From Candidatus Moraniibacteriota bacterium (GTDB taxonomy: Bacteria; Patescibacteriota; Minisyncoccia; Moranbacterales; UBA2206), in assembly GCA_037137555.1 (NCBI GenBank), contig JBAXKA010000001.1, forward strand, positions 1,874-65,873: 64,000 bases of DNA, read 5' to 3'. This document shows positions 17,144 to 40,493 of the stretch, in pieces (within the stretch, counting starts at the first letter, position 1; each line of letters begins with the position of its first letter). The notes below the pieces were generated by a model. It saw only the letters and a program-made list of their open reading frames with translations. It was not told where the DNA came from and ran no database searches. The translations under genes were made by a program, and so were the position numbers.

Positions 17144-18256
17144 CTAATTATTTGAACTAGTCTGCTTAGAAATATTTAAAAGCACACCGATTCCCGCCAT
17201 CAGAAAAATAAGAGATGTTCCGCCATAGCTAATAAACGGTAATGGAATTCCTGTGAGTGGAATAATTCCAGAAATGGCTGAAATATTAATGAGGGCTTGA
17301 AAAGTTATCCAGCAAGTAATGCCCACTGCGGTAAGTTGCGAAAAACGATCTGGTGCATTTTTGGCAATCCGAAAACCGATCATGGCAAGAGCTAAAAATA
17401 AAAAAACTAAAATTAAAACTCCGATCAGTCCCAATTCTTCTCCGATAATGGCAAAAATAGAATCGCCGACTGGTTCTGGCAAATAATTAAATTTTTGCAT
17501 GCTATGCCCCAATCCTACTCCAAAAATTCCACCTGAACCAATAGCCAGAAGTGCTTGATTAATTTGATAGCCAATTCCTCGCGGATCTAATTCGGGATGC
17601 AAAAAAACTAAAAATCGATCCATACGATAAGATTCAAATTTAATTAGCAGTGCAAGTGCCGCGAAACCAGAACCAGCAATCATAAACATATGGGAAAGTC
17701 TGGCACCGGAAATAAAAAAAATCGACATAGCAATAAAAATAATCACACCAAGCGTTCCCATGTCCGGTTGTTTTTCCAAAAGAAAACTAACCACACCAAC
17801 CACTGCTAAAAATGGCAACAAACCTTCATAGAAATCCTTCACTTTTTCCGCGCGACTTTCCAGCCAAGCTGACAGATAAATAATAATTGCTAATTTTAGC
17901 ATTTCTGAGGGCTGAAAAGAAAACGGACCAAGTTGCAACCAACGACTCGCACCATAAACTTTGGAGCCGACACCTGGTACAAAAACTAAAATAAGCAAAA
18001 AAATACTCAGAATAAAAAAAGGAAAAGCAATTTTTCTCCAAAAATTATAATTGATTTTTTGAGTTACATATAAAATAAATAATCCTGGCAAAACTCCATA
18101 AAATAATTGATGCTTAAAAAAATAATAAGAATCACCAAAGCGACTACGCGAATAAGCGATGCCAGCCGAAGCAATCATTGCCAAACCAAAAATAACTAAC
18201 AGTGAAGTTATAAATAATAAGTTTTTATTTATTTCATGTTCTTTATATTTTGTCAT
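17144..18256 (-). CDS. SEDS-family peptidoglycan glycosyltransferase (RodA/FtsW)
   Basis: Ten TM helices and the conserved SEDS motifs (PSE, GHSMQKFNYLPEPVGDSIFAIIGEELG). Confidence 0.85.
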   Translation of the reverse strand: MTKYKEHEINKNLLFITSLLVIFGLAMIASAGIAYSRSRFGDSYYFFKHQLFYGVLPGLFILYVTQKINYNFWRKIAFPFFILSIFLLILVFVPGVGSKVYGASRWLQLGPFSFQPSEMLKLAIIIYLSAWLESRAEKVKDFYEGLLPFLAVVGVVSFLLEKQPDMGTLGVIIFIAMSIFFISGARLSHMFMIAGSGFAALALLIKFESYRMDRFLVFLHPELDPRGIGYQINQALLAIGSGGIFGVGLGHSMQKFNYLPEPVGDSIFAIIGEELGLIGVLILVFLFLALAMIGFRIAKNAPDRFSQLTAVGITCWITFQALINISAISGIIPLTGIPLPFISYGGTSLIFLMAGIGVLLNISKQTSSNN

Positions 18257-18905
18257 TTTTTTCTCGCCATTTTTTTATTTCATTATGATTTCCGCTCATA
18301 AGCACTGCTGGCACTGGCCAATTATTAAATTCTTGCGGTTTGCTATATTGTGGATGTTCTTTGTAGTTTTTAATTTTATGGGATTCATTTTTAGCGCTTT
18401 CAGCATTTCCCAATACTCCAGGCAAAAGTCGTGCAACAGAATCAACAATAATTAACGCGGGAATTTCTCCGCCCGTAAGCACATAATCTCCAATAGAAAT
18501 TTCCTCATCAGCAATATTTTTTGCCACTCGCTCATCTACGCCTTCATAGCGTCCACAAATCAAAACCAAATTAGTATATTTTGCCAACCGCTCTGCTGTT
18601 CTTTGTGTATATTTTTTGCCCTTAGCTGAAAAAAGAATTATTCGTGTATTAGCTTTATTTTGTTTTTTAGTAATTATTTTTTTTATTTTCTCAACACAAG
18701 CATAAATCGGCTGAACTTGAAGCACCATTCCTGCTCCTCCGCCATATGGCGTATCATCAACCTTACCATTTTTATCGTCCGTATAATCTCGCAAATTATG
18801 CGTAAAAATTTCAATAAATTTATTTTTTTGAGCACGCCCAATAATTGATTCTTGCAAATAAGAATTTAAAATTTGAGGAAAAATTGTGATGATGTCGAAA
18901 CGCAT
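18243..18905 (-). CDS. trmD: tRNA (guanine37-N1)-methyltransferase TrmD
   Basis: MRFDIITIFPQIL start, SPOUT knot motifs (LICGRYEGVDERV, YVLTGGEIPALIIVDSVARLLPGVLGN). Confidence 0.9.
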   Translation of the reverse strand: MRFDIITIFPQILNSYLQESIIGRAQKNKFIEIFTHNLRDYTDDKNGKVDDTPYGGGAGMVLQVQPIYACVEKIKKIITKKQNKANTRIILFSAKGKKYTQRTAERLAKYTNLVLICGRYEGVDERVAKNIADEEISIGDYVLTGGEIPALIIVDSVARLLPGVLGNAESAKNESHKIKNYKEHPQYSKPQEFNNWPVPAVLMSGNHNEIKKWREKNDKI

Positions 18906-18925
18906 ATTTTTTGGTGATTATTTTC
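18875..18925. repeat. 51-bp direct repeat, copy 1 (contains the authentic trmD start codon and first 11 codons plus 7 bp upstream)
   Basis: GAGGAAAAATTGTGATGATGTCGAAACGCATATTTTTTGGTGATTATTTTC is identical to 21690-21740. Confidence 0.9.
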
Positions 18926-20000
18926 CAGATTTAGTTCGATTACAATTCTTACAAAGCATCTGGCAATTTTTTGAAATTGTTTTTCCGCCTTCGTGCCAAG
19001 GTGTGATATGATCAGCTTCCATTTCTTCTGTTTCAAAATGTTCTTTGCATTTTATGCAAATGCCTTTTTGTTTTTCATAAATTTCCCTTTTTTGTTTATC
19101 TGCAAAAGCACGGATATTTAAATATTTTTCATTTCTTGTCAGAACATAAGGATAAATTCCAGATTTTTTTGTTACATCTTCATCTTGCATTAGTTTTGTG
19201 ATTTCTTCTTCTAATTTTTCAAAATCAACTTCTTGATCTTTGAATCGATTGTATAAATTCCCAAAAGAAACGCCTTTCATTTCTTTGCGATAATTGGGAA
19301 AAACAGCTTTAATCCAATTTATTATGCTTTGAAAATAGAGCCACAACTCATTGGCGTTTGGCTTGTGCTGATTTTCTGCCATATACTGCTCAATGTTTTC
19401 ATCACTAATCCACGAAATAGCCGTTTCTAAATATTCTTGACGAATACTAGAACCATTTAAATAATCACTTCCAATACCATAGGCAGGGCAACCAGATTTA
19501 CTAAAATATCTTTTGGCATCAGTTAACCAAGTGCCAGTATAAATTGCATTTCGCAATTCTTGATCAGTTAATTTTTCACCAGCGATATTAATTGTTTTAA
19601 ACCAATCTAGTTTTTCCTTATCATTTCCCTCGCAAAAATAAACCATAAGTTTATAATTCAAAATTTGCTCTTGCTCTATGTCGGTAAGATTGTGAAAAGA
19701 TAAGTTATTTAGAAAAAAATTGCCTACCACATATTCGCAAATACTAATTGTGCGTTGTTGTCCGTCCAAAACTTCAAAAGTTCCATCTTCATTTTTCACC
19801 CAATACATTACATTTAATGGAAAACTTTTTTGCACAGTTTCAATCACTAAATCTCTTTGCTTATCCTTATACACAAATTCTCTTTGATATTTTGGACGGA
19901 TATTTAGTTTTCCACTATAGCCAACCACACCTTCTTCATCATTATTAGCATACGCATCAACAATTTCTCTGATTGCGATTTCTTGTAGTTTAATTTTCAT
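18918..20000 (-). CDS. DUF262 (ParB/GmrSD N-terminal-like, DGQQR motif) domain fused to a C-terminal HNH endonuclease domain
   Basis: LDGQQRTISI motif. C-terminus CIKCKEHFETEEMEADHITPWHEGGKTISKNCQMLCKNCNRTKSGK is an HNH/zinc-finger nuclease motif. Confidence 0.75.
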   Translation of the reverse strand: MKIKLQEIAIREIVDAYANNDEEGVVGYSGKLNIRPKYQREFVYKDKQRDLVIETVQKSFPLNVMYWVKNEDGTFEVLDGQQRTISICEYVVGNFFLNNLSFHNLTDIEQEQILNYKLMVYFCEGNDKEKLDWFKTINIAGEKLTDQELRNAIYTGTWLTDAKRYFSKSGCPAYGIGSDYLNGSSIRQEYLETAISWISDENIEQYMAENQHKPNANELWLYFQSIINWIKAVFPNYRKEMKGVSFGNLYNRFKDQEVDFEKLEEEITKLMQDEDVTKKSGIYPYVLTRNEKYLNIRAFADKQKREIYEKQKGICIKCKEHFETEEMEADHITPWHEGGKTISKNCQMLCKNCNRTKSGK

Positions 20001-20011
20001 AAATAGTATAA

Positions 20012-20299
20012 TTAAAAGTTATTTTTTCTAGCCAATTCTGGTAATTTTTCAAATTGATTATGTATCAACGCTTCTTTTTTTTCTCTTCTCCAACCTTGCA
20101 CTTGCTTTTCTCGATAAAATGCTTCATCAATTCTAGCATATTCTTCAAAATAAACTAATTTAACTGGCAATCTCTTTTTTGTGTGATTTGCACCTTTTCC
20201 TGATTGATGTTGAGCCAAACGAAATTCCAAATCTTTTGTACTTCCAGTGTAGTAACTACCATCAGCACATTCTAAAATATACATGTATCCTTTACTCAT
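20012..20299 (-). CDS. GIY-YIG nuclease family protein (short, about 95 aa)
   Basis: [31 protein letters not shown]...QGWRREKK. Start set at MSKGYMYIL (20299). The longer 151-aa ORF reads through the repeat array and is an artefact. Confidence 0.75.
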
Positions 20300-20640
20300 A
20301 CCCGTTGGTTGAGCTTGTCGAAACCAATACTTACTAATTCGCAGGTGTTGCCTTCGATAAGCATAGACATTGTGTGTTGCCTTCGACGGGTGTGTTGCCT
20401 TCGACGGGCTCAGGCAACGGGAACGCATCCGTTGGTTGAGCTTGTCGAAACCAACTGTCGAAACCAATCACCTACTCGTTGGTTGAGCTTGTCGAAACCA
20501 ACACTCACACCAATTCGCTGAGTGTTGCCTTCGATAAACTCAGGCAACGGAGAAGGGTGTTGCCTTCGACGGGCTCAGGCAACGGGAACGCATTGTTGGT
20601 TGAGCTTGTCGAAACCAACTATCGAAACCAACACCCACCT
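20300..20640. repeat. array of about 10 hairpin repeat units of two related types in alternating orientation
   Basis: Type A is CGTTGGTTGAGCTTGTCGAAACCAAC (4 near-perfect copies). Type B is GTGTTGCCTTCGACGGGCTCAGGCAACGG (2 full copies plus 3 partial or variant copies). Both share the architecture stem-TCGAC-nn-GCTC-stem, read on opposite strands. Confidence 0.8.
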
Positions 20641-21601
20641 AAATTTTCTTGTTTTTAATTAAAATTCTAAAATATGGACACTTTCCATTTATGCTTAAAT
20701 CTTTTTCATCATCACCTTTGCGAAATTTTATAATCTCAAACTGCTCCGGATTATATTTATCTAAAAAAGTAATCGGCACGCCCATCGTTCCGGCATAATC
20801 CATTGGGATATCTTTTGTCTTATTAATATTTATTGCATCATAATTATCATATTTTGGATAATCTTCTGGATTATATTGTTTGTATAAAATTAAATCTTCG
20901 TGTCGTTTATTTATTTCTAAGTTAGTGAACCAGACAACACCAGAAACTCTAATCATTCCATCCTTATGATCTCCAGCAGTTGCATAATCTTCATAATGCG
21001 TATTAATAAAATGTGCCGCCCCACCATTAAACCCATAGCCTAGCCATAATTTATCATCCTTGATCAATTTAAATATTTCTTTATATGTTATAGCATTTTG
21101 ATGTCCAATAATAATAAACTTCTTATCATACTCAACCAATTGTGCCACATATTCCCGAAACAAAGAAAAAGGCGGATTAGTCACCACGATATCAGCTTGC
21201 TTTAAAAGTTCAATACATTCAGGACTTCTGAAATCACCATTCTTTTTTAAATGCTTGATACCAATTTCTGAAATATCTGGCACTCGATTTTCATTTTTAT
21301 CGCCAATGTATTCCAAATAAATCGCTTTTTCAGAATTATTTTGACTGAACAAATCGACACTTTGATTTTTATAACAAGTTGTGATTAATTTTTTGAGTCC
21401 TAGAAATTCAAAATTATAGGAAAAATAATGAAAAAAATTGCTCACTCTTGGATCATCGCAATTGCAAAAAACTGTTTTGCCCTTGAAATGATTTTTATAA
21501 TGAGCTAACTCTCTAGTGATATCCGCAAGTTGTGTATAAAACTCATCATTTTTGGCTTTGTTGGCTTTATGTAAATTTTGATTGGAAGATTTTCCTGCCA
21601 T
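20639..21601 (-). CDS. N6-adenine DNA methyltransferase, EcoRI-methylase-like family
   Basis: NPPF motif IV (IVVTNPPFSLFREY). N-terminus DEFYTQLADITRELAHYKNHFKGKTVFCNCDDP and C-terminal PMDYAGTMGVPITFLDKYNPEQFEI recall the M.EcoRI family, recalled from memory rather than searched. Confidence 0.6.
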   Translation of the reverse strand: MAGKSSNQNLHKANKAKNDEFYTQLADITRELAHYKNHFKGKTVFCNCDDPRVSNFFHYFSYNFEFLGLKKLITTCYKNQSVDLFSQNNSEKAIYLEYIGDKNENRVPDISEIGIKHLKKNGDFRSPECIELLKQADIVVTNPPFSLFREYVAQLVEYDKKFIIIGHQNAITYKEIFKLIKDDKLWLGYGFNGGAAHFINTHYEDYATAGDHKDGMIRVSGVVWFTNLEINKRHEDLILYKQYNPEDYPKYDNYDAININKTKDIPMDYAGTMGVPITFLDKYNPEQFEIIKFRKGDDEKDLSINGKCPYFRILIKNKKI

Positions 21602-21689
21602 AAAATTGAATAAATTGCTTAATTATTTTCAGCATATCTTTTTTTTATTTTGTGCCGTATTTCTATTATACCAAAACAAATCAAATCTC

Positions 21690-21740
21690 GAGGAAAAATT
21701 GTGATGATGTCGAAACGCATATTTTTTGGTGATTATTTTC
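21690..21740. repeat. 51-bp direct repeat, copy 2 (a dead trmD 5' fragment: ATG then 10 matching codons, then divergence)
   Basis: Identical to 18875-18925. Overlaps the stop codon of the downstream ATPase gene. Confidence 0.9.
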
Positions 21741-23034
21741 TTAAAAACTCCTCAAAAAAGTTTTTTATTTCAATCTTTCCTCCTTCTACCTTTATCTCTT
21801 CCGAATAACCCATCGTAATAAGCTGAGCTTTTTTAAGTTTAAATTTTTTCATCGCTTCTTTCAATCCAGCGATTTCTCTCTCTCTGTTTCCCTCATTCAA
21901 CTCCCAACAAGCATTTATTGCTTTTTCAATTTTAACGCCTTTTCGCAAAAGAAAATCTATTTCATTTTTTCCTTTCCAATAAAAAATATCTTCGCCTTTT
22001 CGACGATATTCTAGAAAAACCATATTTTCAAAAATACGCCCCAAATTTTCACTGAATCGAAAAGAAACTGCTCGATAAATTCCCAAATCAATAACATACA
22101 CTTTCTCCGGATTAGCTTTTTGCTTCAAATAAGAATAGTCAAATAAATTTATTCCTTGAGTTAAAAAAACATCCTGAGCGTAAGTAAAAAATTTATTCGC
22201 CGTAGGTTGAGAAATAGCCAGAGTTTTTTCCGCCCGATAACCGGAAAAGCTAGTAGCAATACTAGTTACTAGGTTTATATAATACTCCTTAATCTTTTTA
22301 GTATCTCGCACATCATATCTCTGCACAATATCTTTTTCGATAATAGAAGAATAATAATCTTTTAAGAGTTGTAATTTATCTTGAACTTTCGAACTCAGAA
22401 CCACGCGTGGAAAACCACCATACCGCAAATATTCCATAAACTGATTTTTCAATGCCGGCAGTTCCCTTCCGCCAGAAAAATTAATTAGCTTTTGTTTATT
22501 TTTAAAAAGCAGAAACTCCCAAAAACTCAAAGGAAATATTTCATTAGTATAAATTCTTCCCGTAAGTGCTGTACCATATTCCTTGGAAAGTAACTTGGAG
22601 GACGAACCAGTTATATAGAATTTTATTCGTTCTTCCCGATCATGGAGACCACGAACAAATTTTTCCCATCCGTCTATATACTGAACTTCATCAAGCACAA
22701 TTAAAATTTTTCCTTCGGGACTGAATTTTTCCAAATAAGCATCCAGCAATTGAGCGAGAAACTCCAATTTCAGTTGTGGTGCGAAGGCTGGCTCTTCAAA
22801 ATTGATATAGAGAGTATTCTCCTTGGGAAGTCCCTGCTCAACAGCTTTTTTTAAAACCTGAAGTAAAATAGTAGATTTTCCTGATCGCCTAATTCCAGAA
22901 ACTATTGAAACTTCTTTGATATTCTTTTGTCGCAACAATTCTTTCACATAGCCAACCCGCTCTATGCCTGTTTCACGCACACCACCCCACAAATTCCAAT
23001 AAGCCAGAATTTCAATGATTTGCACTTTATTCAT
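21733..23034 (-). CDS. AAA ATPase (AAA_14/DUF4143-like, 'ATP-binding protein' family), copy 1 of 3
   Basis: Walker A GIRRSGKST, Walker B ILIVLDEVQY. Paralogous to 36581-37891 and, more distantly, 35226-36365. Confidence 0.75.
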   Translation of the reverse strand: MNKVQIIEILAYWNLWGGVRETGIERVGYVKELLRQKNIKEVSIVSGIRRSGKSTILLQVLKKAVEQGLPKENTLYINFEEPAFAPQLKLEFLAQLLDAYLEKFSPEGKILIVLDEVQYIDGWEKFVRGLHDREERIKFYITGSSSKLLSKEYGTALTGRIYTNEIFPLSFWEFLLFKNKQKLINFSGGRELPALKNQFMEYLRYGGFPRVVLSSKVQDKLQLLKDYYSSIIEKDIVQRYDVRDTKKIKEYYINLVTSIATSFSGYRAEKTLAISQPTANKFFTYAQDVFLTQGINLFDYSYLKQKANPEKVYVIDLGIYRAVSFRFSENLGRIFENMVFLEYRRKGEDIFYWKGKNEIDFLLRKGVKIEKAINACWELNEGNREREIAGLKEAMKKFKLKKAQLITMGYSEEIKVEGGKIEIKNFFEEFLRK

Positions 23035-23167
23035 ACATAAGTATAGTTTAGCAATTTATATCAAAATACTAAAGTATATTTTAGTATTTGTCAAGCGATT
23101 TAATTCGCCCTTTATTTTCAAAAACAACATTTATTCATGCTACATATTCATTATACCAAAACAAATC

Positions 23168-23198
23168 AAAAAAGGCTAACTTTCGTCAGCCTTTTTTA
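23168..23198 (-). terminator. rho-independent terminator after the KH-domain gene
   Basis: Hairpin GGCTGACGAAAGTTAGCC on the minus strand, flanked by A and T runs. Confidence 0.5.
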
Positions 23199-31263: not shown

Positions 31264-32034
31264 TTATGCCAAAATCGTATTTATAATTTGCAAAATATCA
31301 TGTTTATGATTAACAGACAAGGTGCCAAACATTTTTAGCATTTCTAAAAAAACCTTGATATTGTTTTTTGTTATTTCAAAATGGGCGATTTCTTTTGTTT
31401 TGGCAGTTCGTCCAATTAAATTGATTTCCGTTTTTAGCTCTGTAATGGGAAAACATAAATATAACATCGGTTGCGTGCCGACTGCATATTGTTTTTCAGT
31501 AATTTTTATCTCGGTAACTATTTCATATCCATTGAATTTGTGAATTAAAAGAGGATATTTGACCTGAGTATACTCAAAATCAAATCCATTTATATTTCTT
31601 GCTACTGGATGACTACGATCAATTTGCAATTCAGAATTATTATCAATTAAATCATTGTTTTGTATCGAATTAAGATAATTAATAACATTCTCTAGATCTT
31701 TTCTAGATATAATACCCCACTTAAAAAAATACCAAATGTATTCCGATAATTCATAAAGTGCTTTAATCTTTCCATTTGCTCCAATAAATTCCGTGTCTGG
31801 CAATGATGATTCTGCAAGCTTTTCAACTTCCTTTTTAACAACATCATAACCGATTTGCCATTCGACATAATTACTCAAAACAAACCCATCGCGTCTAGTT
31901 GCAACTGGCGTTCCATACTCATTTAAAATTGAACGATTTTTAACGCGAATTTTCCCACTAACAGTAGTTAATAAAATTGGCACTTCAATCTTATGTTCTT
32001 GTTCTTTAATTAAAATTTTTGGCATATTTTTCAC
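31264..32034 (-). CDS. hypothetical protein; candidate restriction endonuclease partner of the upstream methyltransferase
   Basis: No recognisable family. Overlaps the 3' end of the methyltransferase gene by 29 bp on the same strand. PD...E-like residues around PDTEF...YELSEY are weak. Position only. Confidence 0.3.
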   Translation of the reverse strand: MKNMPKILIKEQEHKIEVPILLTTVSGKIRVKNRSILNEYGTPVATRRDGFVLSNYVEWQIGYDVVKKEVEKLAESSLPDTEFIGANGKIKALYELSEYIWYFFKWGIISRKDLENVINYLNSIQNNDLIDNNSELQIDRSHPVARNINGFDFEYTQVKYPLLIHKFNGYEIVTEIKITEKQYAVGTQPMLYLCFPITELKTEINLIGRTAKTKEIAHFEITKNNIKVFLEMLKMFGTLSVNHKHDILQIINTILA

Positions 32035-33172
32035 CTAATTTACTTCCTAATAATTCCCTAAAATAATTATCTATTTTTAGCTTAGCATTAGGAATTTCTC
32101 TAAATTTAAATTTATTTTTTAAAACTGGATTTGTGTGAACACTCTGTGCAATAAAACATTCCTTTATATCATTGAATTTTTCATTATCAATTATTATATC
32201 ACAATTTCCAATAAAATATGGCATTTTATCTGCGTATTGCTTAAAGATATCAATATAACAATAATAGGGAAGTTTTTCCATTAATATATAAACTGTATTA
32301 TAAGTATCAGAATCAATAAAAGTGCGATTGCGCTTAAGTGCGTTTATATCTCTCAATGTCCAAAATTTTGCGACTGGTTTATCGTTTTTATTTAAGTATT
32401 TTTTGTTCGGATATTTTTGAACATAATTAACTATGGTATCAAAATCTTTTAATCGAAAAATACCATCATCTTTTATTTTAAATTTATAATTTTGAATATA
32501 ATCATATGTCATTCCGTCCTGATCCTTTTTATAGAAAGCTACCAAGATAGGAAAGGCCATGCCTCGAGAGGTGCTGGAAAACTCATGACTACTTATAATC
32601 ATTCCGTCAATCAATTTATAATTTCTAGAAAATTTTGAAAGTAACGAAAAATTCGCTTTTTTAATAAGATATGACAACGGATGCAAAACACAAACATAAT
32701 CCGCTCGAAGCTTATTATAAGACAGTAAAAATGACATTCCCAAATCGCGAGTCTTTATATCAAAATCAGTTTTATCTTGAAGTGAACCATCTTTTATGGA
32801 ATTACGGATTATAGACATAGTATCATTGTATGGCGGATTACCAATAACTATAAGTTTTTCATCATTTTCAATTGTTAGATTTTTACGGCAAACATTCAAG
32901 AGTGAATTTTGGCAAATATAATCGATAGTATCAATTGTTTTCTTCGCTTCAAAAATAGCATCTTGATCTATATCTGCACCAACCAATCTTTTTGCAATAT
33001 TTTTTTTTACCAAAAATGAACCATACCCGCAAGACGAATCTAGAATTGTAAAATCTTTTATATCCTTAATATTCTTTTGCAAAATAAGATAGGCCAAATC
33101 AACGATAGTCTCTGGCGTATAATAAGAGCCAAGATTGACAGTGTCTATATGATTTAAATGTTTTTGATCCAT
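32006..33172 (-). CDS. N6-adenine DNA methyltransferase, gamma class (Eco57I/TaqI-like order X-I-IV)
   Basis: Motif X YYTP, motif I LDSSCGYGSFL, motif IV IVIGNPPYN, followed by a long target-recognition region. Confidence 0.7.
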   Translation of the reverse strand: MDQKHLNHIDTVNLGSYYTPETIVDLAYLILQKNIKDIKDFTILDSSCGYGSFLVKKNIAKRLVGADIDQDAIFEAKKTIDTIDYICQNSLLNVCRKNLTIENDEKLIVIGNPPYNDTMSIIRNSIKDGSLQDKTDFDIKTRDLGMSFLLSYNKLRADYVCVLHPLSYLIKKANFSLLSKFSRNYKLIDGMIISSHEFSSTSRGMAFPILVAFYKKDQDGMTYDYIQNYKFKIKDDGIFRLKDFDTIVNYVQKYPNKKYLNKNDKPVAKFWTLRDINALKRNRTFIDSDTYNTVYILMEKLPYYCYIDIFKQYADKMPYFIGNCDIIIDNEKFNDIKECFIAQSVHTNPVLKNKFKFREIPNAKLKIDNYFRELLGSKLGEKYAKNFN

Positions 33173-34204: not shown

Positions 34205-34243
34205 AAAAAAGAGCAGGCAATCAGCCCACTCTTTTTTGTTTTT
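34205..34243 (-). terminator. terminator-like A-run/hairpin/T-run after HepT-1
   Basis: AAAAAAGAG...CTCTTTTTT inverted arms. The same architecture recurs at 37993-38030. Confidence 0.4.
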
Positions 34244-34675
34244 TTATTTTTTAGTTACAAATTCTAAAATATAATGGCAATACTGATTATAGTCACGGAG
34301 ACAATCGCCGATTGAATGATACACTTTTTCTTTATCCACATTATCATATTCATGAACTAACACATTTCTCGTTCCCGCACTTTTGGCAATTTCTTTGGCA
34401 AAATCATAAGGATAAACTTTTAATTCAGCTAAGATTAAAAAAGTCTCCGTATAGGCCAATGGAGTTCTGGATGTCTTTTCTGCCAATTCATAAACAATGT
34501 GCTGATTAATATCAATCGCACGATTAACTATTCTTTCTAGAAATCTCTCGACTGCCGCCAATTTCACTGGGTCACTAGCCACTTCATCAAATGAATATCT
34601 GGCAAACGGCAATAGATTTTGCAATTCGTCTTCAATTAGTGTTATTTTTCTTTGAATAAAAGTTTTATTTATCAT
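34244..34675 (-). CDS. hepT: HepT-like HEPN toxin (DUF86), pair 1
   Basis: HEPN Rx4HxY motif RNVLVHEY. Start overlaps or abuts the MntA gene. Confidence 0.75.
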   Translation of the reverse strand: MINKTFIQRKITLIEDELQNLLPFARYSFDEVASDPVKLAAVERFLERIVNRAIDINQHIVYELAEKTSRTPLAYTETFLILAELKVYPYDFAKEIAKSAGTRNVLVHEYDNVDKEKVYHSIGDCLRDYNQYCHYILEFVTKK

Positions 34676-34681
34676 AATGAG

Positions 34682-35110
34682 TTAGGCTTGAAGTGCTTGA
34701 TTTATTATCATATATTTCCTTTGAGACATTTTCGCTTCAAAATCAAAAAGTGGTTTCGCATCAACAAAATAGCGATAGGATCGCGCACGCAATTCATCAA
34801 ATTCATTGCGCTCGCCATAAAGCATTTTTCCTTGGAATAAGACCTCGTACGCCAATAATGGATTGGCCTTGTTCAAATTCGTCAAATCAATTAAGCCATC
34901 TGAAACATTCAATACGCGAGATAAAAAAGATAACACGGCACTATAGTTATCCATGCTTTCCCCAATATTTTTCTCTTCTGAAGTTAAGATAGCAATATCA
35001 TAATCACTATTTTCTTGCGCTTTTCCGCTGGCACGCGAACCAAAAAGAATGACCATTTTTATGCCCAATTCTGATGCCTCTTTCTTAAATTTTTTATTAT
35101 CAATTTCCAT
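34682..35110 (-). CDS. mntA: MntA-like minimal nucleotidyltransferase antitoxin, pair 1
   Basis: GSxxxG...DxD motif LFGSRASGKAQENSDYDIAI. Start set at MEIDNKK (35110). The longer ORF begins in the 5' UTR. Confidence 0.75.
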   Translation of the reverse strand: MEIDNKKFKKEASELGIKMVILFGSRASGKAQENSDYDIAILTSEEKNIGESMDNYSAVLSFLSRVLNVSDGLIDLTNLNKANPLLAYEVLFQGKMLYGERNEFDELRARSYRYFVDAKPLFDFEAKMSQRKYMIINQALQA

Positions 35111-35225
35111 ATTTCCAATATACCATATATCCAAAAAAAACACAAAAACAAAAAAGAGCAAGCAAATCACCCAATCTTCTTGTTTTATTTTTCTTCTTTG
35201 ATTGTCGGTGGTGCATTACCAATCA

Positions 35226-36365
35226 TTAAGCCACAAAATCATGATAATTATCGCGATTTATTATCGTAAATTCTGATTGCGGATAGCTCTCCATAAATTT
35301 CTTCGGATAAGGCGCATGTGTTTTTTTCCACTTGAATTCATAGGCATGATATTTTCCACCACTATCTTCGATATAATCAATCTCACTACCAGTATAGGCT
35401 CGCCAAAAATAACTCGTCGCTATTACTTCTTGATATTTTATTTTCTTCATCCTTTCGACTACTAATAAATTCTCAAACAGTGCGCCTTGATCATTGCGAT
35501 CATTCATTGCATTAAGGTTATCAATGAGAATATTTCTAATACCAAGATCATAAAAATATATTTTATCCTTTTTGGTGATTTCTTTGCGTGGATTTTTTGA
35601 CAAGGCTGACAGGCGAAAAATAACAAAAGACTTTTCCAATAAATCAACATACCTGTTCACCGTCTCACTGCTCAGCTCCAGACTATCGGCCAATTCATTA
35701 ATAGAAACTTCCTGTCCGATCTGAAAGGCCAGCAACTTCAGCAATTTATATATTTTATCAGATTTCTTAATCGATTCCAGTTCCAAAATATCCTTATAGA
35801 GATACGAGGTAGCAATTTCTTCTAAAAGTTTCTTTTTATTTTTCAAATTCTCCATAGTGAAAACTTCCGGATATGCTCCATGAATTAAAAAATTATCGAG
35901 ATAGCCACCGAGTTCAAATTCATTATGATAACTGGATAATTCCAAAAATGATAATGGATAGAGAGTATATGTCCAAACTCTGCCAGTTAGTGGTTCTTTT
36001 ATTTTATTTGCCAATTCAAAGGAAGATGAGCCAGTCACAATTATTTTCAAATCCTTCATTCCATCAGCCAAAATTTTCAAATTAATTCCAATATTTTCAA
36101 TCCTTTGCGCCTCATCAATAAATAACAATTCGTAACCGCTTACAAGTGATTTCAGTCTAGAAAGATCACGACTACTCAACACATCGTGGTATTTTTTCTC
36201 ATCAGCATTGATTTTTAGGGTTTTCAAATTAAGCCTGCTAATTATTTGATTCACTAGCGTCGTTTTTCCCACCTGCCTGGCGCCATAAACAATCACAATT
36301 TTATTGCTTTGAGTTAATTTGCCTATTATTGGCTCCAAAATGGCTCTTTCAATTATTTCAACCAT
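35226..36365 (-). CDS. AAA ATPase (AAA_14/DUF4143-like), copy 2 of 3
   Basis: Walker A GARQVGKTT, Walker B LLFIDEAQ. Confidence 0.75.
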   Translation of the reverse strand: MVEIIERAILEPIIGKLTQSNKIVIVYGARQVGKTTLVNQIISRLNLKTLKINADEKKYHDVLSSRDLSRLKSLVSGYELLFIDEAQRIENIGINLKILADGMKDLKIIVTGSSSFELANKIKEPLTGRVWTYTLYPLSFLELSSYHNEFELGGYLDNFLIHGAYPEVFTMENLKNKKKLLEEIATSYLYKDILELESIKKSDKIYKLLKLLAFQIGQEVSINELADSLELSSETVNRYVDLLEKSFVIFRLSALSKNPRKEITKKDKIYFYDLGIRNILIDNLNAMNDRNDQGALFENLLVVERMKKIKYQEVIATSYFWRAYTGSEIDYIEDSGGKYHAYEFKWKKTHAPYPKKFMESYPQSEFTIINRDNYHDFVA

Positions 36366-36416
36366 AAATATTAGCGTTAATTTTTAAGGCTAATATTAAA
36401 TATTAGCGTTAATATG

Positions 36417-36445
36417 ATTATATTACCTAACCGCTTTTCTGTCAA
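36417..36445 (-). promoter_or_regulatory. near-consensus sigma70 promoter (TTGACA, 17 nt, TATAAT) for ATPase copy 2
   Basis: Minus strand reads TTGACAGAAAAGCGGTTAGGTAATATAAT. Downstream in the 5' UTR there are two direct AATATTAGCGTTAAT copies and a 17-bp palindrome CTAATATTAAATATTAG at 36366-36414. Confidence 0.6.
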
Positions 36446-36580
36446 ATTTTCGCTAAAAATGGATGAATTATAGCCTGATTTTTTAGCACAAAAAAAGAAT
36501 CCACGCCGAGGCGGGATTCTTTTTTTTATTTTTTACTGAATTTGATAAAAGGTACTTGACCCCTTTTTTCTTTATCACTT

Positions 36581-37891
36581 TTATTGCAGTAACCAACGCC
36601 AAACAGGCATAACAACGATCTCTCCACTTTCCATTCCAACTGAATCTTCCTCGCTTTCAGTTAGAATTAATGCTTTTTTCAGACCTAGCTCGCGCATAGC
36701 CGATACCGTGGCATTAATTTCTCGCTCGCGAGTTTCAAATTTTTCTAGCGATACGCAAACTTGAATTATGGCTTCTATTTTCTGTTTTTTTCTGATCAAA
36801 AAATCAACTTCGAGATTATTTTTTGTTTTATAATAATATACTTCTTCCTCTTTTTTTAATAAGTGCAAAAAAACCAAGTTTTCCAACAATTTTCCACGAT
36901 CTTCATTAAAGCTAAAACTTATAGCATTACGCAATCCCAAATCTGACGCATACACTTTGCGCGGATTAACAGCCTGCTCCTTCAAAGAATAGGCAAATTT
37001 TGGCAGGAAATAAAGCAGGAAAGGCGTTGTCAAATATTCGGAAAAACGCTCGACTGTTGAAAGGGGGATTTTTAAAAAATCCTTCACTTTATTGTAAGAC
37101 ATTAGAGCGGAGATGTTAGTCAAATAAAATTTTGTCAAAATCCTCAATTTCTCAGATTGCCTTATCTTAAACCGACTCAGCAAATCTCTGTTTATAATGT
37201 CCTCGAAATAATTGCGCAGAATCGTGTTTTTATCCTCTGCTGTTTTCAAAAAAACTGTTTTTGGCATACCGCCAAATTTCAAATATTCCCCAAATAGCTC
37301 CTTTATTTTTGCCTTTTGCCTTACAATACTAAGTTGATCAGAAATTTCGATTTTATTAAAAATCAAAAATTCCGCAAAAGTCAACGGATAGATTTTTAAA
37401 GTCAGTTGCCGTCCGGTCAAAACCGTGCTCAACTCAGAATTGAGTAAATGAGAATTGCTTCCGGATACAAAAATCGACGCCACTTTTCTTTCATGTAAAC
37501 TATTCACGAATTTTTCCCAGCCAGGCACATTTTGAATTTCATCCAACAGAATGAGCGGCTTTCCTCCCGGTTTCAAATTTTGCAAATATGTTTCATATAT
37601 CTCACCCAAAAGCTCAGGGGAATATTCGCCCAAGAATCTCGCATCCTCAAAATTGACATACAAAATATCTTGAGGCAAGAATTTTTTTTCTTCCAGCATT
37701 TTTTTGGCAAACTGCAACATCAAAGTTGATTTTCCGCTTCTTCTGATTCCAATAAGCGACACTACTAAGCCAATATTAAAATATCGCTCCATTTTATCAA
37801 CATATTCCTTTCTTTCTATGCCAGTTTCGATCTTTTTTTGCCAAAAATTCCAATCATTGAGAATTTCCAACAACTTTTCATTATTTATCAT
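36581..37891 (-). CDS. AAA ATPase (AAA_14/DUF4143-like), copy 3 of 3
   Basis: Walker A GIRRSGKST, Walker B LILLDEIQ. N-terminus resembles copy 1. Confidence 0.75.
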   Translation of the reverse strand: MINNEKLLEILNDWNFWQKKIETGIERKEYVDKMERYFNIGLVVSLIGIRRSGKSTLMLQFAKKMLEEKKFLPQDILYVNFEDARFLGEYSPELLGEIYETYLQNLKPGGKPLILLDEIQNVPGWEKFVNSLHERKVASIFVSGSNSHLLNSELSTVLTGRQLTLKIYPLTFAEFLIFNKIEISDQLSIVRQKAKIKELFGEYLKFGGMPKTVFLKTAEDKNTILRNYFEDIINRDLLSRFKIRQSEKLRILTKFYLTNISALMSYNKVKDFLKIPLSTVERFSEYLTTPFLLYFLPKFAYSLKEQAVNPRKVYASDLGLRNAISFSFNEDRGKLLENLVFLHLLKKEEEVYYYKTKNNLEVDFLIRKKQKIEAIIQVCVSLEKFETREREINATVSAMRELGLKKALILTESEEDSVGMESGEIVVMPVWRWLLQ

Positions 37892-37929
37892 ATATGTGGG
37901 TTAAGATTAGTCTTTTTTAAACTATATGC

Positions 37930-37957
37930 AGTATAACAAATTCTGTGCTCTTGTCAA
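37930..37957 (-). promoter_or_regulatory. sigma70-like promoter (TTGACA, 16 nt, TATACT) for ATPase copy 3
   Basis: Shares the core TGTCAAATTTTC(C/G)CTAAAAATGG with the promoter at 36417-36445. Confidence 0.5.
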
Positions 37958-38034
37958 ATTTTCCCTAAAAATGGCTTCAATAAAGCAAACAAAAAAGAGC
38001 AAGCATTTCACTCACTCTTTTTGTTTTCTTTTTT

Positions 38035-38457
38035 TTATTTTGACTTTAAAAATTCATCAATATAGATTAAATATTCCTCAAATTGCGAAAGTCCATCCTT
38101 CAGATCTTGAATCATTTTTTTATTATCCACTTTATCATATTTATGCACGACCATATTTCTCAATTTAACTGCCTCCGCAATTTTATAGGAAAAATCGACT
38201 GGTATCACTCCCTTCTCGCCAAGAATAATAAAAGTATTGCTATATGTGTCAGGAATACCAAAATTTTCTTCCACAATGATATGTGAGTTTATATCCAGCA
38301 TAGTATCAACAATCAACTGAAAATTTCTTTCAAAAAATCTTAAGTTTTTAACATCACGCAATATATCAAAAACATCCAGATCTTTAATAGACTCAATTTC
38401 GCCAAGATAATTGACGATGGAACCCATTTTAGATCTTATTAAATCATTATTGAGCAT
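38035..38457 (-). CDS. hepT: HepT-like HEPN toxin (DUF86), pair 2
   Basis: Rx4HxY motif RNMVVHKY. Paralogue of 34244-34675. Confidence 0.75.
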   Translation of the reverse strand: MLNNDLIRSKMGSIVNYLGEIESIKDLDVFDILRDVKNLRFFERNFQLIVDTMLDINSHIIVEENFGIPDTYSNTFIILGEKGVIPVDFSYKIAEAVKLRNMVVHKYDKVDNKKMIQDLKDGLSQFEEYLIYIDEFLKSK

Positions 38458-38857
38458 AAACTTTTTTTAATTTTTTAATTTTATTGGTGATTATACTATC
38501 TCGTATTTCAAAAAGTCGTTTAGCTTCAAAATACTCTTGCATAGTATTGACAAAAAAATATTCATATTCATTTTTAGCGTCATACAAAACTTTATTATTT
38601 TTAACAATTTCGTATTGCAACAATGGTCCGACATTTTTCAAATCAACAACATCGGCTTCTTTCTTGACTAATTGAGATAACTCAATGCTTAGACTGTCTT
38701 TTTCCAAATAATCCAACCCTCTCTCGCCAATAAAACCAAAATCGAAATCACTCATCGGGTGAGTTTTTCCACTAACTTGTGAACCAAAAAGAAGCAATAG
38801 CTTTAGGCCGTATTTTTGAGCAAGTTCTTTAATTTTCTTTTCATCAATTTTTTCCAT
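38447..38857 (-). CDS. mntA: MntA-like nucleotidyltransferase antitoxin, pair 2
   Basis: LFGSQVSGKTHPMSDFDFG. Start set at MEKIDEKK (38857). The 5' UTR is nearly identical to that of pair 1. Confidence 0.75.
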   Translation of the reverse strand: MEKIDEKKIKELAQKYGLKLLLLFGSQVSGKTHPMSDFDFGFIGERGLDYLEKDSLSIELSQLVKKEADVVDLKNVGPLLQYEIVKNNKVLYDAKNEYEYFFVNTMQEYFEAKRLFEIRDSIITNKIKKLKKVYAQ

Positions 38858-38967
38858 ATTTCCAATATACCATATATCCAAAAAAAACACAAAAACAAAA
38901 ACCAGCACAAAAAAGAAGGGAGGGATTACTCGAAAAAAAAGTAGCTGTAAAAAAAACTAGCAAAAGC

Positions 38968-40154: not shown

Positions 40155-40493
40155 TCATGATGATTTTTTTTCATATAAAAGCATTCCTTTTTTTGAAACC
40201 TTGGTTATAAATGGCTCCTCGAAAGAAAGCTCTTTTTTAAGCTGATTAGGGGTGTAAACAAATAAATCCATCGGAAAAGGTCTCGGGAAGATTGAACCGT
40301 CAATTTCCATGGCTGTTTTTCTATTATCTGTTGTTTCTTTTACCACAAACAAATCTACATCTGAATCTTCCGTTGGCTCACCCCACGCCCAAGAGCCAAA
40401 AAGAATAATTTTTTCCGGCTGAAATTCCTGGACAATTTTGTCCGCCACTTCCTGAATCTTTTTTTCCATTTTCTTTCTGTTTATTACTGCCAT
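40155..40493 (-). CDS. minimal nucleotidyltransferase (MNT, Pol-beta superfamily), third MNT in the window
   Basis: LFGSWAWGEPTEDSDVDLFV motif. Confidence 0.7.
   Translation of the reverse strand: MAVINRKKMEKKIQEVADKIVQEFQPEKIILFGSWAWGEPTEDSDVDLFVVKETTDNRKTAMEIDGSIFPRPFPMDLFVYTPNQLKKELSFEEPFITKVSKKGMLLYEKKSS

What the first reader, a model, noticed from the sequence alone, without database searches (positions are those of the whole stretch)
34244..38908. Duplicated promoter-ATPase and MntA-HepT cassettes: AAA (DUF4143-like) ATPases tightly linked to HEPN/MNT toxin-antitoxin pairs
The three-part unit (AAA_14/DUF4143-like ATPase with its own near-consensus sigma70 promoter, then MntA, then HepT) is present twice. 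The copies are arranged back-to-back on the minus strand in the order MntA2-HepT2-ATPase3-ATPase2-MntA1-HepT1. The two MntA 5' UTRs are almost identical (CCATATTTCCAATATACCATATATCCAAAAAAAACACAAAAACAAAAA). The two ATPase promoters share TGTCAAATTTTC(C/G)CTAAAAATGG. A third ATPase paralogue (21733-23034) sits at the boundary of the trmD island. DUF4143 ATPases are widespread but functionally uncharacterised. Their repeated co-duplication with HEPN/MNT modules, and their placement at defense-island edges, suggest an NTPase-plus-HEPN/MNT defense or abortive-infection module rather than housekeeping genes.
Basis: partly seen in the sequence, partly recalled or inferred. Interest (0 to 1): 0.7.

Follow-up and report, generated by a model that had tools for sequence, protein, structure and literature searches.

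The report
Toxin-antitoxin pairs beside stand-alone ATPase-nucleases
This is a strain-variable accessory patch in a Moraniibacteria (CPR) genome where two ordinary MntA-HepT toxin-antitoxin operons sit next to two separately transcribed ATPase-nuclease genes that are already catalogued as a defence candidate; they are neighbours, not one three-gene machine.

Summary
All six genes are real and intact. They are two MntA-HepT type VII toxin-antitoxin operons and two AAA_14/DUF4143 ATPases.

The claimed "three-part unit present twice" does not hold:
- The two ATPases are only 25% identical and the TA pairs 34-41% identical.
- The gene order is TA2 | ATPase3 | ATPase2 | TA1.
- Each of the four units has its own promoter and terminator.

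Near-identical strains carry the parts independently. One variant has both TA operons directly adjacent with no ATPases, later hit by an IS66 insertion. Another has TA2 and both ATPases but not TA1, with an IS30 at the breakpoint.

Across 80 homologous loci in other species, only 2 of 136 immediate neighbours are nucleotidyltransferases, and HepT is not among the common neighbours. Six ATPase2 orthologue contexts have no MNT or HepT at all.

The ATPases match PADLOC's PDC-S01, a very common but unvalidated defence candidate (AAA+ ATPase, wHTH, PD-(D/E)xK nuclease). The one published phage challenge of a PDC-S01 gave no protection.

Verdict: known kinds of genes placed side by side in a recombination-prone accessory hotspot. 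Interest is low.

The parts
38838..38907 (-). P_mnt element, copy 2: T-run, extended -10 promoter (TGGTATATT) and the ATG of mntA2. The 51-nt core is identical to copy 1.
   Evidence: and the alignment. The -10 ends 6 nt before the ATG, so the mRNA is probably leaderless (inference).
38447..38857 (-). mntA2: MNT nucleotidyltransferase antitoxin, 136 aa from the ATG at 38857. GSX10DXD motif present.
   Evidence: Pfam Polbeta 3.7e-17 and NTP_transf_2 1.7e-8. Called as 136 aa in public contigs. Motif read from the translation.
38035..38457 (-). hepT2: HEPN RNase toxin, 140 aa. Rx4HxY motif is RNMVVHKY. Overlaps the mntA2 stop by 11 nt.
   Evidence: Pfam HepT-like 2.6e-23; sequence.
37992..38022 (-). 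Intrinsic terminator hairpin C, after hepT2.
   Evidence: 14 pairs plus T-run. Related to hairpins B and D (family D1).
37930..37957 (-). ATPase3 promoter: TTGACA-16-TATACT with TG.
   Evidence: 11/12. Upstream motif shared with the ATPase2 promoter.
36581..37891 (-). ATPase3: AAA_14 + DUF4143, 436 aa, PDC-S01 subtype PDLC04787. The third nuclease motif is Q-V-C instead of E-x-K.
   Evidence: Walker A is GIRRSGKST and Walker B is LLDE.
36489..36528 (-). Terminator-like hairpin after ATPase3 (AGAATCC...GGATTCT followed by a T-run).
   Evidence: Read by eye. Not reported by the scan because the loop exceeds 8 nt.
36417..36445 (-). ATPase2 promoter: TTGACA-17-TATAAT.
   Evidence: 12/12.
35226..36365 (-). 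ATPase2: AAA_14 + wHTH + DUF4143, 379 aa, PDC-S01 subtype PDLC04789. Canonical PD-(D/E)xK residues E298, D330 and E343-x-K345.
   Evidence: AF2 model with pLDDT 89.3, fold search, alignment.
35160..35195 (-). Terminator hairpin B after ATPase2. Its right arm and T-run are a 19-nt direct repeat of hairpin C.
   Evidence: The L002 (IS30) breakpoint lies in its loop.
35091..35160 (-). P_mnt element, copy 1: T-run, extended -10 promoter and the ATG of mntA1.
34682..35110 (-). mntA1: MNT antitoxin, 142 aa from the ATG at 35110. GSX10DXD motif present.
   Evidence: NCBIfam NF047752 MntA_antitoxin, 76.9 bits against a cutoff of 60. PDB 7ae2_B MNT antitoxin at 1.2e-12.
34244..34675 (-). hepT1: HEPN RNase toxin, 143 aa. 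Rx4HxY motif is RNVLVHEY.
   Evidence: NCBIfam NF047751 HepT_toxin, 90.1 bits against a cutoff of 60. PDB 7ae9_A HEPN toxin at 7.8e-17.
34205..34237 (-). Intrinsic terminator hairpin D, after hepT1.
21733..23034 (-). ATPase1: third AAA_14/DUF4143 paralogue, 40% identical to ATPase3. It sits between khpA and an R-M/type IV island inserted in front of trmD.

Best explanation
The segment is part of a strain-variable accessory hotspot between the type IV pilin genes and NIF3 in a Candidatus Moraniibacteriota genome. It holds four independent cassettes.

1. **Two autonomous type VII toxin-antitoxin operons (mntA-hepT).** By homology to the solved systems, the HepT HEPN RNase (Rx4HxY) is kept inactive by MntA-catalysed AMPylation of the motif tyrosine.
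2. **Two stand-alone PDC-S01-type genes.** Each encodes an ORC/Cdc6-like AAA+ ATPase, a winged helix and a C-terminal PD-(D/E)xK nuclease-fold domain. Each has its own strong promoter and terminator.

The cassettes lie side by side because related terminator-hairpin/promoter junctions serve as recombination and IS-insertion points. They do not act together.

The most likely role of the ATPases is inferred, not shown. I take each to be a self-contained ATP-dependent DNA-binding nuclease that acts on foreign DNA or behaves as a selfish accessory gene, independently of the TA pairs.
For: **Shown: identity of the parts**
- HepT1 and MntA1 pass the NCBIfam equivalog cutoffs.
- The closest solved proteins are the HEPN toxin and MNT antitoxin of 7ae9/7ae2 and 5yep.
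- The catalytic motifs are intact.

**Shown: separate transcription units**
- There are two consensus promoters and three scanned terminators, plus two more hairpins read by eye.

**Shown: the parts separate in relatives**
- L087, L095 and L098 are 99.4-99.6% identical to the window. They have mntA2-hepT2, then an IS66 transposase, then mntA1-hepT1.
- That IS has 23-nt perfect inverted repeats and an 8-bp target duplication (CTTTTTTG). Removing it leaves the two TA operons directly adjacent with no ATPases.
- L002 and L004 have mntA2-hepT2-ATPase3-ATPase2 followed by an IS30 transposase and unrelated genes, with no mntA1-hepT1.
- L003 lacks the neighbouring R-M pair.

**Shown: no conserved partner elsewhere**
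- Among 136 immediate neighbours of 80 ATPase3 homologues, the counts are DUF4143 5, SMC_N 4, NTP_transf_2 2, with 187 families in all.
- My own HMMs found any MNT, HepT or HEPN in 9 of the 80 loci.
- None of 6 ATPase2 orthologue loci has one.

**Shown: structure**
- The AF2 model (pLDDT 89.3) has a C-terminal alpha-beta-beta-beta-alpha-beta domain carrying E298, D330 and E343-x-K345.
- Its best fold matches are Orc1/Cdc6, RuvB, PAB2304 and STAND NTPases.

**Literature**
- DUF4143/COG1373 is listed as a PD-(D/E)XK family (PMC3424549).
- PDC-S01 is described as an ATPase plus PD-(D/E)XK and the fourth most common candidate defence (PMC12988326).
Against: - In L002 the block mntA2-hepT2-ATPase3-ATPase2 is 98.9% identical to the window, while the flanking pilus genes are 89.3% identical. 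These four genes therefore travelled together at least once.
- A few distant loci do have an MNT or HEPN next to the ATPase: L017, L033 and L044, with L059 about 1 kb away.
- Neighbour genes were called with a crude ORF-based caller, so some small genes may have been missed.
- No experiment shows what the ATPases do.
Confidence: 0.8

Rival explanations
1. One reading: the DUF4143 ATPase and the MntA-HepT pair form one functional three-gene defence or abortive-infection module, in which the ATPase senses infection and works through the HEPN/MNT pair.
For: - Both ATPases are adjacent to TA pairs in this locus.
- The four-gene block was exchanged as a unit: 98.9% identical against 89.3% for the flanks.
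- MNT or HEPN genes lie next to or near the ATPase in a few of the 80 distant loci.
Against: - Each unit has its own promoter and terminator.
- The gene order is not repeated, and the ATPases are 25% identical.
- Near-identical strains have TA pairs without ATPases, and ATPases without TA1.
- Only 2 of 136 immediate neighbours are nucleotidyltransferases, and HepT is not among the top 25 families.
- None of 6 ATPase2 orthologue loci has MNT or HepT.
- MntA-HepT pairs are established as self-sufficient two-gene systems (PDB 7ae9, 5yep).
Confidence: 0.06
2. ATPase3 and ATPase2 act together as a two-gene paralogue pair, for example as a hetero-oligomeric ATPase-nuclease. On this view the conserved unit is the ATPase pair, not ATPase plus TA.
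For: - The two ATPases are gained or lost together between strains.
- DUF4143 is the commonest immediate neighbour of ATPase3 homologues, at 5 of 136.
- 2 of 6 ATPase2 orthologues have another AAA_14/DUF4143 gene directly upstream, in L088 and L092.
- The two promoters share a 23-nt upstream motif.
Against: - Each has its own promoter and terminator.
- The upstream partners in L088 and L092 are only 40% and 26% identical to ATPase3, so no specific pairing is conserved.
- Most homologues stand alone.
- Clustering could simply reflect shared insertion hotspots.
Confidence: 0.12
3. The DUF4143 ATPases are not defence genes at all. They are selfish or mobile accessory genes, or DNA-transaction factors, that accumulate in variable regions because insertions are tolerated there.
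For: - Their neighbourhoods are essentially random, including housekeeping genes such as aminotransferases, tRNA synthetases and glycosyltransferase clusters.
- Close homologues (44-68% identical) are spread across CPR bacteria, DPANN and methanogenic archaea, which implies frequent transfer.
- The family is found on 504 plasmid records.
- The one PDC-S01 tested in E. coli B against T7, T5 and T4 gave no protection (bioRxiv 10.1101/2024.09.26.614923).
- ATPase1 is flanked by a perfect 21-nt direct repeat.
Against: - PADLOC selected the family because it is recurrently embedded in known defence systems (bioRxiv 10.1101/2024.01.29.577857).
- All three copies here abut R-M, type IV restriction or TA genes.
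- No transposase or recombinase domain was detected in the protein.
- A single negative heterologous assay is weak evidence.
Confidence: 0.2

Closest known systems
Type VII toxin-antitoxin system MntA-HepT (Shewanella oneidensis SO_3165/SO_3166, PDB 5yep; Aphanizomenon flos-aquae HEPN-MNT, PDB 7ae2/7ae9)
   Same: - Antitoxin-first bicistronic operon with overlapping or abutting genes.
- HepT carries Rx4HxY and MntA carries GSX10DXD.
- NCBIfam equivalog hits are above cutoff, and the best PDB sequence hits are exactly these proteins.
   Different: - The two pairs are divergent from each other and from the solved proteins.
- They share an identical 51-nt promoter/start region.
- The mRNA is probably leaderless.
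- AMPylation and toxicity are untested.
PADLOC phage-defence candidate PDC-S01 (AAA_14 + DUF4143; COG1373)
   Same: - Full-length matches to PDC-S01 models, E 1e-106 to 1e-146.
- Single-gene units.
- ATPase plus PD-(D/E)xK architecture.
- Located in variable or defence islands.
   Different: - The three copies belong to two sub-models (PDLC04789 and PDLC04787).
- The ATPase3/ATPase1 subtype has Q-V-C where the canonical E-x-K lies.
- PDC-S01 itself is only a candidate, and its one published test was negative.
PAB2304 / 'archaeal ATPase' PF01637 (PDB 2qen) and Orc1/Cdc6-type AAA+ proteins
   Same: - 2qen has the highest full-length TM-score among the PDB matches (TMq 0.49, rank 4 by E-value); Orc1/Cdc6 2qby_B has the lowest E-value.
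- Shared AAA+ core, lid and winged helix.
   Different: - Only weak, sub-threshold Pfam matches to ATPase_2.
- The proteins here carry an extra C-terminal nuclease-fold domain.
PADLOC PDC-M05 (nucleotidyltransferase + HEPN two-gene candidate)
   Same: Same general MNT plus HEPN logic. One PDC-M05 protected E. coli against phage (bioRxiv 10.1101/2024.09.26.614923).
   Different: MntA1 matches PDC-M05A only weakly (5e-4), and the HepTs match no PADLOC model. These pairs are therefore not members of that candidate family as modelled.

Membership tests
Type VII TA MntA-HepT | Toxin is a HepT-type minimal HEPN protein with the Rx4HxY motif. | tested here: met
   - PF01934 at 9.5e-24 and 2.6e-23.
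- NF047751 at 90.1 bits against a cutoff of 60 for HepT1.
- Motifs RNVLVHEY and RNMVVHKY.
- PDB 7ae9_A at 7.8e-17.
Type VII TA MntA-HepT | Antitoxin is a minimal nucleotidyltransferase with GSX10DXD. | tested here: met
   - Polbeta and NTP_transf_2 hits.
- NF047752 at 76.9 bits against a cutoff of 60 for MntA1.
- GSRASGKAQENSDYD and GSQVSGKTHPMSDFD.
- PDB 7ae2_B at 1.2e-12.
Type VII TA MntA-HepT | Two-gene operon with the antitoxin first and translationally coupled genes. | tested here: met
   mntA2 and hepT2 overlap by 11 nt. mntA1 and hepT1 are 6 nt apart. Each pair has one promoter upstream and one terminator downstream.
Type VII TA MntA-HepT | MntA AMPylates the HepT tyrosine, and HepT cleaves RNA and is toxic. 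| not testable with these tools
   Needs biochemistry or a toxicity assay.
PDC-S01 (PADLOC candidate) | Full-length match to PDC-S01 profile HMMs, as a single-gene unit. | tested here: met
   E 2.7e-146 (ATPase2), 5.6e-119 (ATPase3) and 2.7e-106 (ATPase1). Each has its own promoter and terminator.
PDC-S01 (PADLOC candidate) | P-loop ATPase with intact Walker A, Walker B and arginine. | tested here: met
   G-x-R-x-x-G-K-[ST]-T, hhhhDE and LTGR are invariant in alignments A1 and A5.
PDC-S01 (PADLOC candidate) | C-terminal PD-(D/E)xK nuclease domain with catalytic residues. | tested here: inconclusive
   - ATPase2 has the canonical topology with E298, D330 and E343-x-K345.
- The ATPase3/ATPase1 family has E, then E-x-D, then Q-V-C with no lysine at the third motif.
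- The domain fold was not compared on its own with nuclease structures.
PDC-S01 (PADLOC candidate) | Confers protection against phage or other mobile DNA. | not testable with these tools
   One homologue tested in E. coli B against T7, T5 and T4 did not protect (bioRxiv 10.1101/2024.09.26.614923).
STAND / Avs antiviral NTPases | STAND NTPase with a C-terminal sensor repeat domain and a separate effector domain. | tested here: not met
   - Only sub-threshold nSTAND5/6 hits, 16-19 bits against cutoffs of 28-34.
- The protein is 379-436 aa with no repeat domain in the model.
- STAND structures match only through the shared NTPase/wHTH core.
   Strain variants separate them. Only 2 of 136 neighbours are NTases. 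None of 6 ATPase2 orthologue loci has MNT or HepT.
Integron-type cassette array | Adjacent integrase and attC recombination sites at cassette ends. | not tested
   - No integrase search of the window was made.
- The junction hairpins pair partly through G-U wobbles that exist only in the transcript of the coding strand (and reading). That fits RNA terminators rather than DNA attC sites.

The most novel reading that the evidence does not exclude
The related terminator-hairpin / T-run / promoter junctions may act as portable cassette boundaries. These are hairpins B, C and D and the 51-nt identical P_mnt element. On this reading, CPR genomes could shuffle TA and defence-candidate cassettes by recombination at these junctions without an integrase. 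The four-gene block (TA2 plus two ATPases), exchanged at 98.9% identity between lineages whose flanks are 89% identical, would be one such mobile unit. It might also have a functional reason to travel together.
Probability: 0.1. Interest if true: 0.55.

Novelty: new member of a known kind. Interest (0 to 1): 0.22.

Why it matters
The result matters mainly as a caution. In small CPR genomes, accessory genes pile up in a few hotspots, so adjacency inside one genome is weak evidence for a shared mechanism. Here, comparison of a handful of near-identical strains was enough to separate the parts.

The locus does add three useful observations:
- PDC-S01-type ATPase-nucleases are polymorphic within a Moraniibacteria population at more than 99% identity.
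- They tend to occur in tandem paralogue pairs.
- Terminator hairpins are the breakpoints for cassette indels and for IS30 and IS66 insertions.

The function of PDC-S01 is still open, although it is among the commonest candidate defence genes. This locus does not make that question easier to answer.

Tried and rejected
- **Viral contigs:** a scan with ATPase3 found no relatives.
- **PDB sequence search** with ATPase3 found nothing.
- **Metagenome scan** for the 25-nt P_mnt core gave a single contig. That contig turned out to be the informative IS66 variant. It also shows the element is lineage-restricted, not a general regulatory motif. Both promoter motifs occur only in this locus's own variants among the 93 loci held at that point.
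- **AAAATTTGACA** is not over-represented in the window: 8 matches against 11.9 expected. The shared ATPase promoter motif is therefore not a genome-wide promoter signature.
- **My own iterative HMMs** for MNT, HepT and HEPN were built from few seeds and may under-detect. I therefore re-scored the immediate neighbours with Pfam.
I re-ran it without them.
- **Integron-like attC reading** of the hairpins was considered and set aside. Stem pairing relies on G-U wobbles, which fits RNA terminators.
- **STAND/Avs membership** was considered and rejected (see the membership test).
- **IS66-mediated deletion** of the ATPase pair was considered and rejected. The IS has an intact 8-bp target duplication.

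Full report
**What is in the sequence**

On the minus strand between 38908 and 34244 there are six intact ORFs. Pfam assigns them as follows:
- MNT nucleotidyltransferase (Polbeta/NTP_transf_2)
- HepT-like HEPN
- AAA_14+DUF4143, 436 aa ("ATPase3")
- AAA_14+DUF4143, 379 aa ("ATPase2")
- MNT
- HepT-like

A third AAA_14+DUF4143 gene ("ATPase1") lies at 21733-23034.

HepT1 and MntA1 pass the NCBIfam equivalog cutoffs for the type VII toxin-antitoxin system: NF047751 at 90.1 bits against 60, and NF047752 at 76.9 bits against 60. Their best solved relatives are the HEPN toxin and MNT antitoxin of 7ae9/7ae2 and 5yep.

The catalytic signatures are present in the translations:
- Rx4HxY in both HepTs (RNVLVHEY, RNMVVHKY)
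- GSX10DXD in both MntAs

The long GTG-initiated ORFs in the mechanical list are upstream extensions. The likely starts are the ATGs at 38857 and 35110, which give 136 and 142 aa, as called on public contigs.

- A 33-nt core of the mntA upstream element occurs exactly twice, with none expected by chance. The two copies are 89% identical over 70 nt and have a 51-nt identical core.
- The ATPase promoter motif occurs exactly twice, against 0.01 expected.
- The promoter scan finds TTGACA-17-TATAAT (12/12) upstream of ATPase2 and TTGACA-16-TATACT with TG (11/12) upstream of ATPase3.
- It also finds intrinsic terminators upstream of mntA2, after hepT2 and after hepT1.
- Two further hairpin-plus-T-run structures follow ATPase3 and ATPase2 (read; the ATPase2 one is hairpin B).

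The region therefore contains four transcription units: mntA2-hepT2 | ATPase3 | ATPase2 | mntA1-hepT1.

The mntA element is not really a 5' UTR. It is a T-run plus an extended -10 (TGGTATATT) that ends 6 nt before the ATG. The mRNAs are therefore probably leaderless (inference).

**The "three-part unit present twice" is not there**

- ATPase2 and ATPase3 are 25% identical and best match different PDC-S01 sub-models.
- ATPase3 is closer to the distant ATPase1, at 40%.
- MntA1/2 are 41% identical and HepT1/2 34%.
- The order is TA-ATPase-ATPase-TA, not a repeated ATPase-MntA-HepT.

These are old paralogues placed side by side, not a duplicated cassette.

**Strain comparison separates the parts**

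The exact ATPase3 and HepT1 proteins occur on public contigs annotated as Candidatus Moraniibacteriota. Three locus variants exist.

1. **Window, L001 and L003.** All six genes are present. L003 lacks the neighbouring R.Pab1/MTase pair and one pilin.
2. **L002 and L004.** These have mntA2-hepT2-ATPase3-ATPase2 and then diverge in the loop of hairpin B.
   - The next gene is an IS30-family transposase (257.8 bits), followed by unrelated genes. There is no mntA1-hepT1.
   - The four-gene block is 98.9% identical to the window, while the flanking pilus genes are 89.3% identical. The block was therefore exchanged recently between lineages.
3. **L087, L095 and L098.** These are 99.4-99.6% identical to the window. 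They have mntA2-hepT2, an IS66-family transposase on the opposite strand (237.5 bits), then mntA1-hepT1-NIF3.
   - The IS has 23-nt perfect terminal inverted repeats and an 8-bp target duplication, CTTTTTTG, in the T-run of the hepT2 terminator.
   - Removing it restores a clean hairpin/T-run/P_mnt junction. Before the IS arrived, the two TA operons were directly adjacent with no ATPases between them.

In the window, the ATPase3-ATPase2 segment is bounded by a 19-nt direct repeat, the right arm plus T-run of hairpins C and B. This is consistent with either insertion or deletion at these hairpins.

So TA pairs exist without the ATPases, and the ATPases exist without TA1.

**Distant relatives show no conserved partnership**

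*ATPase3 family.* A genome-collection scan with an ATPase alignment returned 80 loci from CPR bacteria, DPANN and methanogenic archaea, Omnitrophota, Elusimicrobia and others, at 36-68% identity.
- My own iterative HMMs found any MNT, HepT or HEPN gene in 9 of the 80 loci, and adjacent in only a few.
- I then scored the 136 nearest flanking ORFs with Pfam. They hit 187 different families.
- The commonest were DUF4143 itself (5), SMC_N (4) and AAA_21 (4). NTP_transf_2 and Polbeta each had 2. HepT-like was not among the top 25.

*ATPase2 family.* I looked up six orthologues at 72-88% identity on long contigs.
- None has MNT or HepT within 4 kb.
- Their contexts include glycosyltransferase clusters, pilin genes, Fic and large hypothetical proteins.
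- Two of the six have another AAA_14/DUF4143 gene immediately upstream. Those partners are only 40% and 26% identical to ATPase3.

**What the ATPases are**

All three match PADLOC's PDC-S01 (E 1e-106 to 1e-146).
- PDCs are untested candidates, chosen because they are found embedded inside known defence systems (bioRxiv 10.1101/2024.01.29.577857).
- PDC-S01 is described as the fourth most common defence candidate in prokaryotes, an ATPase fused to a PD-(D/E)XK domain (PMC12988326).
- DUF4143/COG1373 was already listed in the PD-(D/E)XK superfamily survey (PMC3424549).
- In the one phage challenge I found, a PDC-S01 representative did not protect E. coli B against T7, T5 or T4. A nucleotidyltransferase+HEPN candidate (PDC-M05) did protect (bioRxiv 10.1101/2024.09.26.614923).

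*Structure.* An AlphaFold2 model of ATPase2 (pLDDT 89.3, pTM 0.89) shows four parts:
- an AAA+ core
- a helical lid
- a winged helix
- a C-terminal alpha-beta-beta-beta-alpha-beta domain carrying E298, D330 and E343-x-K345, the canonical PD-(D/E)xK arrangement

The ATPase3/ATPase1 family keeps E and E-x-D but has Q-V-C at the third motif. Its nuclease activity is therefore uncertain.

Foldseek against the PDB returns Orc1/Cdc6, RuvB, the Pyrococcus Walker-type ATPase PAB2304 (highest full-length TM-score, 0.49) and STAND NTPases through the shared core.

*Distribution.* Homologues occur on 504 plasmid records but only 19 phage records, most of them unannotated virome contigs.

**Context in the window**

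- The segment lies between the type IV pilus genes (PilC and two pilins) and NIF3.
- An orphan MNT sits at 40155-40493; its HEPN partner is present in L002 but absent here.
- A type II R-M pair lies at 31264-33172.
- ATPase1 lies between khpA and an EcoRI-like methylase, a GIY-YIG nuclease, a GmrSD-HNH protein and trmD.

Within this genome the three ATPases are all island-associated.

**Conclusion**

The best explanation is four independent cassettes brought together in a recombination-prone hotspot whose junctions are related terminator hairpins and a shared promoter element.

The mechanism of the TA pairs follows from close homology to characterised systems. The mechanism of the ATPases, an ATP-dependent DNA-binding nuclease acting alone, is inferred from domain architecture only.

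Two points remain open:
- the four-gene block was exchanged as a unit at least once
- DUF4143 paralogues tend to sit in tandem

Noticed in passing
window 18860-18925 and 21675-21740; genes 18243-21601: A 2.8-kb island sits directly in front of trmD. It holds an EcoRI-like adenine methylase, a GIY-YIG nuclease and a GmrSD-N/HNH type IV restriction protein. It is flanked by a 66-nt direct repeat (91% identical) that contains the first 11 codons of trmD, so a trmD 5' fragment (MRFDIITIFPR) is left behind after ATPase1.
   Followed up: partly
window 21665-21685 and 23150-23170: A perfect 21-nt direct repeat, ATTATACCAAAACAAATCAAA, brackets ATPase1 together with its own promoter. On the coding strand it reads TTTGATTTGTTTTGGTATAAT, an extended -10 promoter. 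This looks like an insertion footprint or a duplicated promoter.
   Followed up: no
window 20300-20640: A cluster of short direct repeats lies between the methylase and the GIY-YIG gene and overlaps the 5' end of the latter. There are 4 copies of GTTGGTTGAGCTTGTCGAAACCAAC and 4-5 copies of GTGTTGCCTTCGAYRRRCTCAGGCAACGG. Their nature is unknown.
   Followed up: no
window 40155-40493; L002 5837-6570: A third MNT gene is an orphan in the window. In the relatives L002 and L004 it is followed by a PF05168 HEPN gene that is missing here. A conserved 62-65-aa ORF overlaps its start.
   Followed up: partly
L087 413-1897 (also L095, L098): An active-looking single-ORF IS66-family element of 1.54 kb, with 23-nt perfect inverted repeats (GTAACTATTCACCTTTCTCCAAC) and an 8-bp target duplication. 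It is inserted in the T-run of the hepT2 terminator and is seen in at least three independent assemblies.
   Followed up: yes
L002 12727-13704: An IS30-family transposase is inserted in the loop of the terminator hairpin after ATPase2. Synteny with the window ends at this point.
   Followed up: partly
window 35168-38907 compared with L002 8967-12725: The block mntA2-hepT2-ATPase3-ATPase2 is 98.9% identical between two lineages whose flanking pilus genes are only 89.3% identical. This indicates recent horizontal exchange of the 3.76-kb block.
   Followed up: partly
L088 507-3378; L092 2681-5140; A2 neighbour set: AAA_14/DUF4143 genes tend to sit next to other, divergent AAA_14/DUF4143 genes. 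They make up 5 of 136 nearest neighbours of ATPase3 homologues, and 2 of 6 ATPase2 orthologue loci have one upstream.
   Followed up: partly
window 31264-33172: A type II R-M pair (R.Pab1-like endonuclease plus N6-adenine methylase) is present in the window but absent from the otherwise 98%-identical assembly GCA_964482625.1 (L003).
   Followed up: partly
window 36365-36413: A perfect 17-nt direct repeat, TAAATATTAGCGTTAAT, occurs twice 32 nt apart in the leader between the ATPase2 promoter and its start codon (family D19).
   Followed up: no
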